A stretch of 5,166 bases of DNA from a virus. Lineage: Duplodnaviria; Heunggongvirae; Uroviricota; Caudoviricetes. A program made the position numbers. Where the stretch lies: the IMG/VR virus record IMGVR_UViG_2548876865_000013, positions 1-5,166 of that record; one strand, written 5' to 3'. This document shows positions 1 through 3,000 of this stretch, piece by piece; position 1 is the stretch's first letter, and each line of letters opens with the position of its first letter.

Positions 1-3000
1 TTCACAAAGGTTTTCAGGCCGTTGGGATCTTTCAGTGCATCCAGCCAGTCATAGACTATCTGTACCCAGGTGGTGAACGGACTGTACGCCGTCCAGATAT
101 GGAAAGTGATGGAGCGCGGCGGCGGAATTTCATCACCCCGGGCGCTGAAAAACATCAGGCCGTCACGGGTCCACATGCCCGTGTTTTCACAGATCCACCG
201 CCCGTTGCTCTGGTCAGGCTCAGACTGATGGATCACGCAGCCATGATGTTCACAGAGGTAGAAAACGCTTTCGGGGCTGTCCTTCTCCCATTTAAGGCCA
301 AAAGGCGTGGATTCATCGCCAAATTTCAGATACTGCTCCTCCCCACAGTGTGGGCAGGGCACATAAAAACGCATGAAATGCGCCGACTCGTTGGCCGCTT
401 TTTCGATCTGGCAGGTGCCTTTGATTTTAGGCGTCGAGCCGCGAATGGATTTTGGCCATACAGAGCCCTCAATACGTTTATCCCCCAGCAGGGTTGGCGA
501 TCCCTCTTTTTCAACATCCGGTTCGAACGAGGAAAGTTCGTCATAGCAGACCACATCCACGGATTTTTCACGGTAGTTTTTGGCGGCAGCGCCGCCCAGG
601 CACCAGAACCCCACACGTGACGTAAACCTTTTTAATGTCAGCGTGTTATCCCTGTGCTTACGTCCCAGCCAGGGGGAAAGGATTTTCAGACAGGGAACAT
701 CCCGTAATGTCGACTCCACATGAGACTTCATAAAATCTTCAGCGGCAGAATCCGTAGGCTGAAACAGAAGACTGTTACGATTTTTATGCTCAATAAAGTA
801 ACCAATAACGCCCATCAGCATTTTGGTGTAACCGACACGAGCTGATTTTATAAGATTAATCGTGCGGATCCGGTCATTACCCATGCAGTTCATTATTGCC
901 ACCTGAAACGGCAACGTCTTCCACCGCCCGGCAAGATAAGAAGACTCCGGAGGTAAATAATAATTTTGATCAGCCCATTCAACGGTGGTGACAGGCAGTG
1001 GGCGTAAAAGACCGCGAAGTGCCACGCTACAAACAACAGCAAAGTTATTTAGCTGCTTCTCTGAGGTATTCATCCAGCATCTCCGGTAACTTCTCTGCCG
1101 TTGATGCGCATCGGTTTGCCGCCTTTGCTATATCGGTTTTCAGGAAATCAAGCATGGCGGGCGTCAGTGCCGGAAACTGTCTCTGCATGGACAATGGAAT
1201 GGAGTCAAGAATGGCAGAGATCTCCTGCGCCAGTCTTCCCAGAGCAAAAAGGCAAAACCCTGTATCAATGACCTGTCCACTGTCACGGGCATTTTTCAGT
1301 TCCTGTGCATCTGCCTGTGCCTTCGTCAGTCGGTAGCGTTCGTAATCAATGGTGCCGGGCTGAAGGTCAGATTCACTGGCAGCCCTCAAGTCTTCGACCT
1401 CTTTACGGAGTTTTTCATTTTCAATATCAGCTTCGCGCTGCGCATACCATTCGATCGCCTTCGCAGAATCAAAGATGACCTCAACGCCTTTTCCTCCGCC
1501 AGATATCTGAGGGAGCCCCTGAGTTTGCCAGCGATCAATCGTGCGTATATCGACATTAAAAATTTCAGCAAGCTTCTTTTTATTAACATTCATTCAGCAA
1601 TTCCTTATCAAAAATCAGTTACGACATGAAATGCCAAAAAAACAGATTTTTCATCATTCTGATGTCGTTTCTTTCTTGATAGTTATTTCTTTAAAAACAA
1701 TACGTTAACAACAAGAAGAACTGACATGCTTTTTCCCGGAAAATTTTCATAAATAGCGAAAACGCGCGAGGTCGCCGCCCCGTAACCGGTCGGATCGCCG
1801 GAAAGGACCCACAAAATAATAATTATCATCTACATGTCACAACGTGCGTGTACGCCATCAAACCACGTCAAATAATCAATTATGACGCAGGTATCGTATT
1901 AATTGATCTGCATCAAATTAACGTAAAAGTAACTTCAGATAATACAAATCAGCAACACTGAATATGGGGCAACATTATGTCATCAAAGAACAGAACCCGC
2001 AGAACAACAACCCGCAATATCCGTTTCCCCAATCACATGATTGAACAGATCAACAGCGCCCTTGAGCATAAAGGGTCCGGTAACTTTTCAGCATGGGTCA
2101 TTGAAGCCTGCAGAAGAAGACTTGCGGCTGAGACTTCTGACGCGAATAACAAACAGAGTTAAGTAAAATTGCCTTTAAAGACAAACGCTGATACCCGATA
2201 CATGAGGTTTGTCATTCTATCCCCCGACAGCACGGATGCGCCCTCTGACTGTGGTTTTTACAAAAAAACTAATAGATTATTTCTTATGACGAAGATAACT
2301 CACTCAAAAAAAAAGCGACGAGAAGATCAGTATCAGCGCACAATAAGCGCCAATGCGTGATAACAGAGGGTAACCGTATTTATCTGCATTACAGGCAATA
2401 AATAATACAATCACACCAGCAATCGTCAGCATTAAACCCATTTGTCGTTCCCCGAACACACTCAACTTATCTCTGGTATTACAGTCCTTTTTATTATCAA
2501 TATGTTAAAAGTAAAATAAACTGATATTCAATTATCTGAATACAAAAATGTGCTGAAACTCAACGAATCCTTTCCCGTATTCTCAGGTAAACATCGTAAA
2601 TATCCGGTTTCTTCCACCATCGCACCGGACCAGCGACCATGAGGGGACAACGCCGCGCTCCGTTAACGCGGTAAACCCCGGTGTGTATCGTTTTTGATTA
2701 TCCCCACACACTCGCGCAGAGGAGTCTCCCTGTCGGGCTGCGGTCTCTGTTAATGCGGGAATACGGCGACAATACCGCGCCATGGATAATAAGGTCGCTC
2801 AACACACTGGCTGTAATGCAGCCGATACCATGCGGCATTTAGCGGCATTCATCGTACACTCAACGGTTAGCTCTTCATTCGTGGCATTCACCTGAAAGGT
2901 CCTGGAGTGTAATTGCGTACATTTACCACTGAACGAACCTTCAACAAGAACACGACCACGCTGCAAAATACGGAACGGAATTGTTCCCTGAAAAGGCTTT

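What the first reader, a model, noticed from the sequence alone, without database searches (positions are those of the whole stretch)
1860..2162. Small RHH (DUF3950/YlcI-like) gene facing away from cos, with an imperfect inverted repeat upstream
An RHH-type DNA-binding protein is encoded on the strand opposite to all structural and lysis genes, immediately beside cos. Upstream, TCAATTA (about 1874-1880) and TAATTGA (about 1895-1901) form an inverted repeat that could be its operator, and TTAACG-16 bp-TAATAC could be a promoter. Such a protein could autoregulate, or be the antitoxin-like or regulatory half of a small module; its partner is not evident.
Basis: partly seen in the sequence, partly recalled or inferred. 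Interest (0 to 1): 0.4.

Follow-up and report, generated by a model that had tools for sequence, protein, structure and literature searches.

The report
Arc-like YlcI/YnfO gene beside cos
The finding is a real, strongly conserved small gene for a ribbon-helix-helix DNA-binding protein of the already catalogued but functionally unstudied YlcI/YnfO (DUF3950) prophage family, which phage lambda itself also carries; the proposed operator and promoter upstream of it are not supported as general features.

Summary
The window is the lysis-cos-terminase junction of an E. coli lambdoid prophage. ORF 1977-2162 (+), 61 aa, is a genuine gene. Codons 1-50 have dN/dS of about 0.065. It scores above the curated cut-offs for Pfam DUF3950 and NCBIfam YlcI_YnfO_N, and RefSeq already names it a YlcI/YnfO family protein. 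Lambda has an unannotated homolog about 190 bp from its right end.

The RHH fold is supported, but each individual match is weak. The AF2 model (pLDDT 76) retrieves almost only RHH structures, and the strand motif N-I-R-F-P aligns with Arc's N-L-R-W-P.

The inverted repeat exists but is misplaced in the finding. It is ATCAATTATGACG / CGTATTAATTGAT at 1875-1887 and 1895-1907. It is only marginally above chance (about 3% of shuffles) and only partly conserved. It is absent from the second genomic context of nearly identical proteins. The proposed promoter scores no better than chance.

No conserved partner gene exists and the C-terminal tail is hypervariable, so an antitoxin role is unlikely.

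New context: all 72 natural close-homolog loci sit at a packaging-module boundary, antisense to the late operon. PICI-like satellites fuse this RHH to a small-terminase DNA-binding domain.

Verdict: known family, function unknown, modest interest.

The parts
1977..2162 (+). CDS of a 61-aa YlcI/YnfO (DUF3950) family protein; the end coordinate includes the stop codon
   Evidence: RefSeq WP_001371679.1 is a 100% match.
1977..2126 (+). Conserved RHH core, codons 1-50: basic N-terminal arm, strand T-R-N-I-R-F-P, helix 19-32, G-S-G-N-F-S turn, then helix 37 onwards
   Evidence: dN/dS is about 0.065. Variable sites by codon position 3/1/2 are 38/14/12. AF2 model and Foldseek. Alignments A2 and A4.
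2127..2159 (+). Hypervariable C-terminal tail. A mosaic junction falls inside the 3' end of the ORF.
   Evidence: Tails differ in sequence and length (53-99 aa proteins) among homologs. Window-lambda DNA identity collapses here.
1966..1969 (+). GGGG Shine-Dalgarno-like run, 7 nt before the ATG
   Evidence: Read from the sequence. The HNH-context homologs have GAGGAAA at the same spacing.
1875..1907 (.).
   Evidence: Shuffle p is about 0.03. One symmetric A:T to G:C change occurs in the L097/L094 variants. The repeat is lost in L054.
1897..1925 (.). Most conserved non-coding block of the lambda-cos lineage. It contains the tighter palindrome TTGAT-N4-ATCAA (1903-1916), whose only variable base is in the central spacer.
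   Evidence: Per-column variability across 22 unique lambda-cos sequences. Alignment display.
1835..1976 (.). Upstream non-coding block that travels with the gene, not with cos. The 37-aa ORF at 1848-1961 inside it is not coding.
   Evidence: Phages with lambda-type cos but no ylcI (HK225, mEp237, Stx1_131719) lose homology at about 1813-1835. ORF test: the start codon is not conserved and variable sites fall 12/12/13 by codon position.
1918..1945 (+).
   Evidence: In most relatives the -10 hexamer is CAATAC.
1769..1780 (.). cosN 12-nt cohesive-end sequence (reverse complement of lambda 1-12)
   Evidence: Read from the sequence. Alignment to lambda.
1804..1810 (-). cosQ (GGGTCCT on the minus strand)
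   Evidence: Mapped from the curated phage 434 record OL657226 through the alignment.
1045..1593 (-). Small terminase subunit Nu1, divergent from the RHH gene across cos
   Evidence: Pfam Phage_Nu1, E 1.1e-81.
2304..2441 (-). Convergent annotated 45-aa hydrophobic ORF. It is context only and is not conserved next to homologs.
   Evidence: RefSeq WP_000523825.1. No family hit.

Best explanation
ORF 1977-2162 encodes a small Arc-like ribbon-helix-helix DNA-binding protein of the YlcI/YnfO (DUF3950) family.

Shown:
- It is a real gene under strong purifying selection.
- Its functional unit is residues 1-50: a basic arm, a beta-strand carrying N14 and R16, and two helices.
- It is carried by lambda and by most E. 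coli lambdoid prophages. It is the gene nearest the packaging module and is oriented against the late operon.

Inferred:
- It acts as a dimer, or dimer of dimers, that inserts a two-stranded beta-sheet into the major groove of a short repeated DNA site.
- It is made from its own weak or atypical promoter in the uninduced or cryptic prophage, like other reverse-oriented accessory genes (bor; Mnt of P22).
- It acts as a transcription regulator, not as an antitoxin.

Its DNA target is not identified. This cannot be a family-wide operator.
For: Gene reality: dN/dS is about 0.065, with a third-position excess of variable sites (38/14/12).

Family: Pfam, NCBIfam and PHROG hits are above cut-off where a cut-off exists. 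RefSeq names it.

Fold:
- The AF2 model has pLDDT 76, with helices at 19-32 and 37-59.
- About 40 of the 50 listed Foldseek PDB hits are RHH proteins (NikR, StnY, Arc, ParD, MazE, CdbA, PutA, CopA); the next largest group is the plant TCP domain. The better RHH matches have rmsd 1.4-1.8 A over 37-47 residues.
- The best profile-to-PDB hits are a CopG-family RHH (E 0.097) and CdbA.
- hhalign puts T-R-N-I-R-F-P in register with Arc's Q-F-N-L-R-W-P. R16 is invariant in 23 diverse homologs.

Expression without induction: ylcI forms a transcriptional overlap with ybcW in at least 50% of K-12 RNA-seq samples (PMC12288877). A DUF3950 gene is detectably transcribed in O157:H7 (PMC7709258).

Position and orientation.

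Upstream block: it is about 3-fold more conserved than synonymous sites within the lambda-cos lineage. It is lost where the gene is absent.
Against: - No individual structural or profile match is statistically significant (best Foldseek E 0.76; best hmmsearch E 0.097).
- The monomer model does not form the beta-strand.
- No sigma-70 promoter above chance lies upstream.
- No cis element is shared between the two genomic contexts, although the DNA-reading residues are identical. Autoregulation at a common operator is therefore unsupported.
- No functional study was found in the searchable literature.
Confidence: 0.6

Rival explanations
1. First reader's model. The protein represses its own promoter (TTAACG-16-TAATAC) by binding the inverted repeat at 1875-1907.
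For: The repeat is real and mildly unusual (p about 0.03). It lies in a non-coding block more conserved than synonymous sites. One lineage shows a symmetric A:T to G:C change that keeps the inner arm pairing. RHH repressors commonly autoregulate (established knowledge of Arc, CopG and MetJ).
Against: - The left arm varies at 5 positions, and the repeat is destroyed in the L054/L052 variant while the gene is intact.
- The repeat is absent from the HNH-type context, which carries the same protein core.
- The repeat ends 10 bp upstream of the proposed -35, which is not a position that occludes RNA polymerase.
- The promoter itself is no better than chance.
Confidence: 0.2
2. Packaging-linked role. 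The RHH binds DNA at or near the packaging site, or works together with the small terminase. It might mark, shield or regulate the cos region or entry of transcription into the packaging genes.
For: - All 72 natural unique close-homolog loci put the gene at the boundary of a packaging module. 36 lie within 450 nt of lambda-type cosN. 36 lie 41 bp divergent from an HNH endonuclease gene followed by a Terminase_2 small subunit.
- Five or more distinct 120-142-aa proteins in PICI-like satellites fuse an RHH domain to the N-terminal HTH of Terminase_2. In four of them (P0200, P0266, P0267, P0269) and in P0244 the RHH is scored as DUF3950; in P0268 the RHH is of a different type. Both domains are above Pfam cut-offs in P0200 and P0244.
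- The fused HTH is 67% identical to the N-terminus of the neighbouring prophage small terminase. It is 66% identical to Stx-phage small terminase.
Against: - The lysis/packaging junction is a general hotspot for reverse-oriented accessory genes, so synteny may reflect descent and recombination.
- More distant homologs are not next to a terminase. The satellites L202 and L205 carry the RHH alone inside the alpA-primase operon. A rodent-gut phage carries it among tail genes.
- Lambda-type cos phages lacking the gene exist and are viable (HK225, mEp237).
- Minimal lambda cos does not need this region (my own knowledge of the cos literature, not checked here).
Confidence: 0.12
3. Antitoxin or regulatory half of a two-gene module whose partner lies nearby.
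For: Many RHH proteins are antitoxins, and Foldseek hits include ParD, MazE, HicB and TacA. In lambda, DLP12 and Qin a DUF1398 gene lies downstream in the same orientation. One database protein (P0149) is a YnfO-DUF1398 read-through.
Against: - In this window there is no DUF1398 gene or any other conserved co-oriented gene downstream.
- Homology between relatives stops inside the 3' end of the ORF.
- The tail after helix 2 is 11 aa here and unconserved, with no toxin-binding extension.
- There are no PADLOC hits.
- In lambda an opposite-strand ORF separates the RHH gene from the DUF1398 gene.
Confidence: 0.04
4. The conserved sequence is a cos-associated or RNA element, and the ORF is incidental.
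For: Window-to-lambda identity is higher upstream of the ORF than inside it. The hairpin folds weakly (z -1.6 and -2.7).
Against: - The codon-position pattern and dN/dS show protein-level selection.
- The ORF is conserved with an unrelated upstream region in the HNH context.
- There is no Rfam hit.
- The upstream block is missing from cos phages that lack the gene.
Confidence: 0.02

Closest known systems
YlcI (DLP12) and YnfO (Qin) of E. coli K-12: Pfam DUF3950 (PF13132), NCBIfam NF041551, PHROG 949
   Same: The conserved 50-residue core, the small size, the position next to a Nu1 homolog (nohD/nohA) and cos, and the orientation against the late genes. The DLP12-position loci (L017, L030) have a near-identical upstream block including the repeat.
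   Different: Only the C-terminal tail and the downstream neighbours differ. There is no DUF1398 (ybcV/ydfO) gene in this window. No member has a demonstrated function.
Unannotated lambda ORF, complement of about 48120-48314 (annotated as ALA45744 in KT232076 and as a DUF3950 protein in the phage 434 record OL657226)
   Same: 88% identical over residues 1-52. Same distance from cosN. The upstream block is nearly identical, including a 63-bp perfect stretch covering the repeat.
   Different: The lambda tail is TSEKRAYTSIKSDEE. Lambda has CAATAC where the window has TAATAC. Lambda and 434 carry a TTGY-N6-TTGY (CII-consensus) match on the other strand that is degenerate in the window.
Arc and Mnt repressors of phage P22 (immI region)
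   Same: Small RHH proteins. The strand motif N-x-R-[WF]-P is in register with Arc N11 and R13, which are base-contacting residues (Arc chains among the Foldseek hits). Mnt is also encoded inside the late region, in reverse orientation, and is made in the lysogen (my own knowledge).
   Different: No antirepressor gene or Arc-type operator is present here. Sequence similarity is confined to about 23 residues (hhalign probability 12%). The target is unknown.
RHH antitoxins (ParD, B. subtilis MazE, TacA, the HicB C-terminal domain)
   Same: The fold of the N-terminal 45 residues.
   Different: There is no adjacent toxin gene, no conserved C-terminal toxin-binding segment and no operon partner.

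Membership tests
YlcI/YnfO family (Pfam DUF3950, NCBIfam NF041551) | Score above the curated cut-off of the family models | tested here: met
   PF13132: 69.2 bits against a cut-off of 25. NF041551: 38.6 bits against 30. PHROG 949: E 4e-32.
YlcI/YnfO family (Pfam DUF3950, NCBIfam NF041551) | Conserved NFS motif and the ...NFSAWVIEAC... helix | tested here: met
   N36-F37-S38-A39-W40-V41-I42-E43-A44-C45 are present. F37, V41 and A44 are invariant in 23 diverse homologs.
Ribbon-helix-helix (Arc/MetJ/CopG) superfamily | beta-alpha-alpha topology, with a G-x-[ST]-type turn opening helix 2 | tested here: inconclusive
   Two helices with the right lengths and a GSGNFS turn are predicted. The top Foldseek hits are mostly RHH proteins, but every E-value is 0.76 or higher. 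The best profile hit to the PDB has E 0.097. The strand is not formed in the monomer model.
Ribbon-helix-helix (Arc/MetJ/CopG) superfamily | N-terminal strand with alternating polar (DNA-facing) and hydrophobic (core) residues | tested here: met
   The strand is T12-R13-N14-I15-R16-F17-P18. It aligns with Arc Q9-F10-N11-L12-R13-W14-P15. R16 is invariant, and I15 and F17 are nearly so.
Ribbon-helix-helix (Arc/MetJ/CopG) superfamily | Intertwined homodimer that binds DNA through the paired strands | not testable with these tools
   Only monomer prediction was available. It needs AF2-multimer, SEC-MALS and EMSA.
Type II toxin-antitoxin antitoxin (RHH class) | Co-transcribed adjacent toxin gene | tested here: not met
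   There is no conserved co-oriented neighbour. Downstream DNA is non-homologous among relatives. There are no toxin or defence hits.
Type II toxin-antitoxin antitoxin (RHH class) | Conserved C-terminal toxin-neutralising extension | tested here: not met
   The tail is 11 aa here and hypervariable in sequence and length.
Autoregulated RHH repressor with an upstream palindromic operator | A repeat overlapping a recognisable promoter and conserved together with the protein | tested here: not met
   The repeat is marginal, partly conserved and absent in the HNH context. No promoter scores above chance.

The most novel reading that the evidence does not exclude
YlcI-family RHH proteins are functionally tied to recognition of the packaging site. 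In E. coli lambdoid phages the gene is always the neighbour of the packaging module, whether this is lambda cos/Nu1 or HNH plus a Terminase_2 small subunit. PICI-like satellites have fused the RHH to a copy of the helper's small-terminase DNA-binding HTH. That fusion would make a dimeric decoy or adaptor for the helper's cos region. The phage-borne RHH would then modulate access to, or transcription through, the cos/terminase region. The gene also lies on the DNA end that enters the cell first and reads inward, so it could act very early in infection.
Probability: 0.12. Interest if true: 0.6.

Novelty: already known. Interest (0 to 1): 0.27.

Why it matters
The gene family is very widespread. 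4555 of 5426 complete E. coli genomes match some part of this 901-bp segment, with a median of 2 places per genome. The family is under strong constraint and is present in lambda itself, yet it has no known function and is missing from the lambda reference annotation. A DNA-binding protein made from silent prophages could regulate prophage, satellite or host genes. The satellite fusions to a terminase DNA-binding domain give a concrete, testable lead. For this particular window, however, nothing departs from what RefSeq already annotates.

Tried and rejected
- Rfam scan of the whole window at E up to 1: only a sub-threshold DicF match elsewhere, so there is no RNA family at the locus.
- RNA folding of the repeat on both strands: z-scores of -1.6 and -2.7, unconvincing.
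- The upstream 37-aa ORF at 1848-1961, annotated in one lambda record: rejected as coding.
- Search for a cis motif shared by the two upstream contexts. The only shared word at a similar distance from the ATG is the 7-mer TAACGTA (-58 versus -62). The local alignment score is matched by 73% of shuffles.
- The CATCAAA triple (1856, 1911, 1981) looked clustered, but the first copy is not conserved.
- PADLOC defence models: no hit.
- Sequence search of the PDB with the close-homolog profile: nothing.
- Literature: DUF3950, ylcI and ynfO appear only in gene lists. The lambda ribosome-profiling paper is not held.
- The genome-contig scan mostly returned lambda control DNA in unrelated assemblies, not true homologs.
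- A second viral-contig scan with the diverse profile returned the same close relatives.
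Full report
**Where the window comes from**

The window is a 5.2-kb piece of an E. coli lambdoid prophage. Positions 1600-2500 are 100% identical to NZ_CP180600.1. The minus strand carries these genes:
- a lysozyme gene (4217-4750);
- Rz with embedded Rz1 (3020-3514 and 3109-3294);
- the small terminase Nu1 (1045-1593);
- the start of the large terminase.

Between Rz and Nu1 lies a lambda-type cos. AGGTCGCCGCCC at 1769-1780 is the reverse complement of lambda bases 1-12. GGGTCCT (cosQ) is at 1804-1810 on the minus strand. The window's + strand therefore corresponds to lambda's bottom strand. 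Positions from 1781 onward correspond to lambda's extreme right end.

**Is the gene real?**

ORF 1977-2162 (+) encodes 61 aa. It scores above the curated cut-offs of Pfam DUF3950 and NCBIfam YlcI_YnfO_N, and it hits PHROG 949, a family of unknown function. RefSeq annotates exactly this protein as a 'YlcI/YnfO family protein'.

I compared 38 distinct coding sequences from fetched loci over codons 1-50.
- Variable sites fall 38/14/12 on codon positions 3/1/2.
- Mean dS is 0.79 and mean dN is 0.052, so dN/dS is about 0.065.

It is therefore a protein-coding gene under strong purifying selection.

Beyond about residue 50 the homologs have unrelated tails of different lengths. DNA identity to lambda also collapses at that point. 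The functional unit is the 50-residue core, and a mosaic junction lies inside the 3' end of the ORF.

Lambda has a homolog that is 88% identical over residues 1-52. It is unannotated in NC_001416 and annotated in KT232076 and in the phage 434 record.

**Is it a ribbon-helix-helix protein?**

- An AF2 model built with 23 diverse homologs has pLDDT 76, with helices at 19-32 and 37-59.
- About 40 of its 50 listed Foldseek PDB matches are RHH proteins: NikR, StnY/CopG, Arc, ParD, B. subtilis MazE, CdbA, NikA, PutA, CopA and TacA. The next largest group is the plant TCP domain. The better RHH matches have rmsd 1.4-1.8 A over 37-47 residues.
- No single Foldseek E-value is below 0.76, which is expected for a domain this small.
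- A profile search of PDB sequences ranks a CopG-family RHH first (E 0.097) and CdbA third.
- hhalign places T-R-N-I-R-F-P in register with Arc's Q-F-N-L-R-W-P. N14 and R16 then correspond to Arc's base-contacting N11 and R13.
- R16, F37, V41 and A44 are invariant across homologs down to about 31% identity.

I regard the RHH assignment as well supported but not formally significant. Dimerisation and DNA binding could not be tested.

**The inverted repeat**

The arms are ATCAATTATGACG (1875-1887) and CGTATTAATTGAT (1895-1907), 11 of 13 complementary, with a 7-nt gap.

In dinucleotide shuffles of 1781-1976, 2.9% give an equal or better 13-nt repeat. 7.6% give a perfect repeat of 8 nt or more.

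Within the 22 unique lambda-cos-type sequences:
- Non-coding divergence is 0.095 per site. Synonymous changes occur in 28% of codons, so the block is constrained.
- The constraint is concentrated on 1897-1925. This covers the right arm plus TTGAT-N4-ATCAA at 1903-1916, whose only variable base is in the spacer.
- The left arm varies at five positions.
- One lineage (L094/L097) shows a symmetric A:T to G:C change, together with a disruptive one.
- Another lineage (L052/L054) has lost the repeat but keeps the gene.

**Does the repeat belong to cos or to the gene?**

Phages with lambda-type cos that lack the gene lose homology at window position about 1813-1835. They have neither the repeat nor a YlcI homolog. 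Examples are HK225, mEp237 and Stx1_131719. The upstream block therefore travels with the gene and is not part of cos.

The 37-aa ORF inside the block (1848-1961) is not coding. Its start codon is not conserved and its variable sites fall 12/12/13 by codon position.

**A second genomic context**

I looked at 75 unique close-homolog loci with at least 450 nt of upstream sequence.
- 36 have lambda-type cosN within 450 nt.
- 36 have a completely different upstream region.
- 3 are artefacts of lambda control DNA.

In the second group the gene is divergent from an HNH endonuclease gene, with only 41 bp between the two start codons. A Terminase_2 small subunit gene and a large terminase gene follow.

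These proteins share 85-91% identity with the window's core, including an identical beta-strand. Yet their upstream DNA has no ATCAATT/AATTGAT motif and no significant local similarity to the window's upstream block. The best local alignment is a 7-mer, and 73% of shuffles match or beat it.

At most it is a lineage-specific site.

**The promoter**

TTAACG-16-TAATAC matches 7 of 12 consensus positions and lacks the invariant T at -7. In lambda and most relatives the -10 hexamer is CAATAC. The consensus scan finds no + strand promoter in 1590-2900. In a PWM scan the best + strand candidate between the Nu1 start and the ATG scores 7.6, against a shuffle median of 7.3.

Transcription nevertheless seems to occur without induction.
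- ylcI appears as a convergent transcriptional overlap with ybcW in at least half of the K-12 RNA-seq samples analysed in PMC12288877.
- A DUF3950 gene is among the differentially expressed genes in O157:H7 (PMC7709258).

The promoter therefore remains unmapped.

**Partner gene and the antitoxin idea**

Downstream DNA is not conserved among relatives. In this window the next annotated gene is a convergent 45-aa hydrophobic ORF with no family assignment. PADLOC finds nothing.

In lambda, DLP12 and Qin a DUF1398 gene (lambdap78/ybcV/ydfO) lies further downstream in the same orientation. It is absent here. The short, hypervariable tail also argues against a toxin-binding antitoxin.

**Wider relatives**

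A HMMER scan of 1.84 billion representative proteins finds only 200 hits, many of them error-laden reads of lambda. Genuine distant homologs (31-53% identity) keep the pattern K-x-I-R-F-P...NFSAWV[IV][ED]AC. Their contexts are informative.
- PICI-like satellites carry the RHH alone, antisense inside the alpA-to-primase operon (L202, L205).
- Other satellites carry it fused to the N-terminal HTH of a Terminase_2 small subunit. These are P0200, P0244 and P0266-P0269, all 120-142 aa. In P0268 the N-terminal RHH is of a different type. In P0200 and P0244 both domains are above Pfam cut-offs.
- In L206 the fused HTH is 67% identical to the N-terminus of the small terminase of the neighbouring prophage. 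P0244's HTH is 66% identical to Stx-phage small terminase.
- A rodent-gut phage has a homolog in a small reverse-oriented island among tail genes.

Reverse orientation inside a long forward operon is thus the most general feature. Adjacency to packaging genes holds for all natural E. coli lambdoid loci examined but not beyond them.

**Mechanism**

The best-supported reading is a small dimeric RHH regulator encoded by a reverse-oriented accessory gene and made in the lysogen, with an unknown DNA target. The nearest characterised analogues in form are Arc and Mnt of P22.

The packaging-linked reading rests on synteny and on the domain fusions, and it is worth testing. But the lysis/packaging junction is a known hotspot for accessory genes, and phages without the gene are viable. 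I give it about 0.12.

One inference rests on my own knowledge and is not tested here. Lambda DNA enters the cell right end first. If so, this gene would be the first to enter, reading inward.

**Novelty and verdict**

The family and this exact protein are already in public annotation, and its function is unknown. The operator, promoter and module ideas are not supported. Interest is modest. The most useful outputs are the negative result on the operator, the two-context comparison, and the satellite RHH-terminase fusions as a lead.

Noticed in passing
L207 4714-5103; L206 8001-8429 (proteins P0200, P0244, P0266-P0269): PICI-like satellites (integrase, AlpA, primase) encode 120-142-aa proteins that fuse an RHH domain (YlcI-type in most, a different RHH in P0268) to the first ~52 residues (the HTH) of a Terminase_2 small subunit. 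The gene is antisense to the satellite's replication operon. In L206 the fused HTH is 67% identical to the N-terminus of the adjacent prophage's small terminase. This may be a helper-packaging interference or hijack factor.
   Followed up: partly
window 3472-3479, 3527-3534, 4325-4332 (minus strand): Three Chi octamers (GCTGGTGG) lie on the strand that corresponds to lambda's top strand. 0.17 are expected, and 0 of 200 shuffles reach 3. [quoted passage not shown]
   Followed up: partly
L007-L043 (genome-contig hits): About 30 'genomes' of unrelated taxa (Streptomyces, Pseudomonas, Cohnella, Flavobacterium, MAGs and others) contain the lambda homolog. It sits on contigs of ~3.5 kb or ~48.4 kb, some with poly-T adapter-like ends. 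These look like sequencing-control lambda DNA left in the assemblies, not real homologs.
   Followed up: partly
L002 (lambda) complement of about 48120-48314; L003 1789-1983: The lambda reference record NC_001416 does not annotate its own YlcI/YnfO homolog (64 aa), although the ORF is intact and the family is under strong constraint. lambdap78, labelled 'head protein', is a DUF1398 protein (Pfam E 2.2e-46).
   Followed up: yes
window 3522-3653 and 3793-3924 (minus strand): Two paralogous 43-aa hydrophobic ORFs (both PHROG 4906, unknown function) sit in tandem between Rz and the lysozyme gene, next to a 70-aa ORF (PHROG 6632).
   Followed up: no
window 2799-3023 (minus strand): A 74-aa ORF matches only positions 100-172 of the 291-position PHROG 2571 profile. 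It looks like a fragment of a longer gene. The best-matching genome (L001) appears to lack roughly 255 bp of the window's sequence between about 2500 and 3020.
   Followed up: no
window 4856-5128 (+): A second reverse-oriented gene (90 aa, PHROG 2411, unknown function, annotated in RefSeq) lies between the lysozyme gene and the YdfR/holin genes. The RHH gene is therefore not the only + strand gene in the late region.
   Followed up: no
L213 152-165 (phage 434), equivalent to window ~1929-1942, minus strand: The curated phage 434 record marks a TTGY-N6-TTGY match to the CII consensus here. It reads TTGTCTGAAGTTGT in lambda and 434. In the window it is degenerate (TTATCTGAAGTTAC). This is a pattern annotation only.
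   Followed up: no
window 1813-1840 (minus strand): The best sigma-70-like match in the cos-to-ATG interval is on the minus strand (GTGACA-16-TATTTT), reading towards cos and Nu1. It is within the chance range.
   Followed up: no
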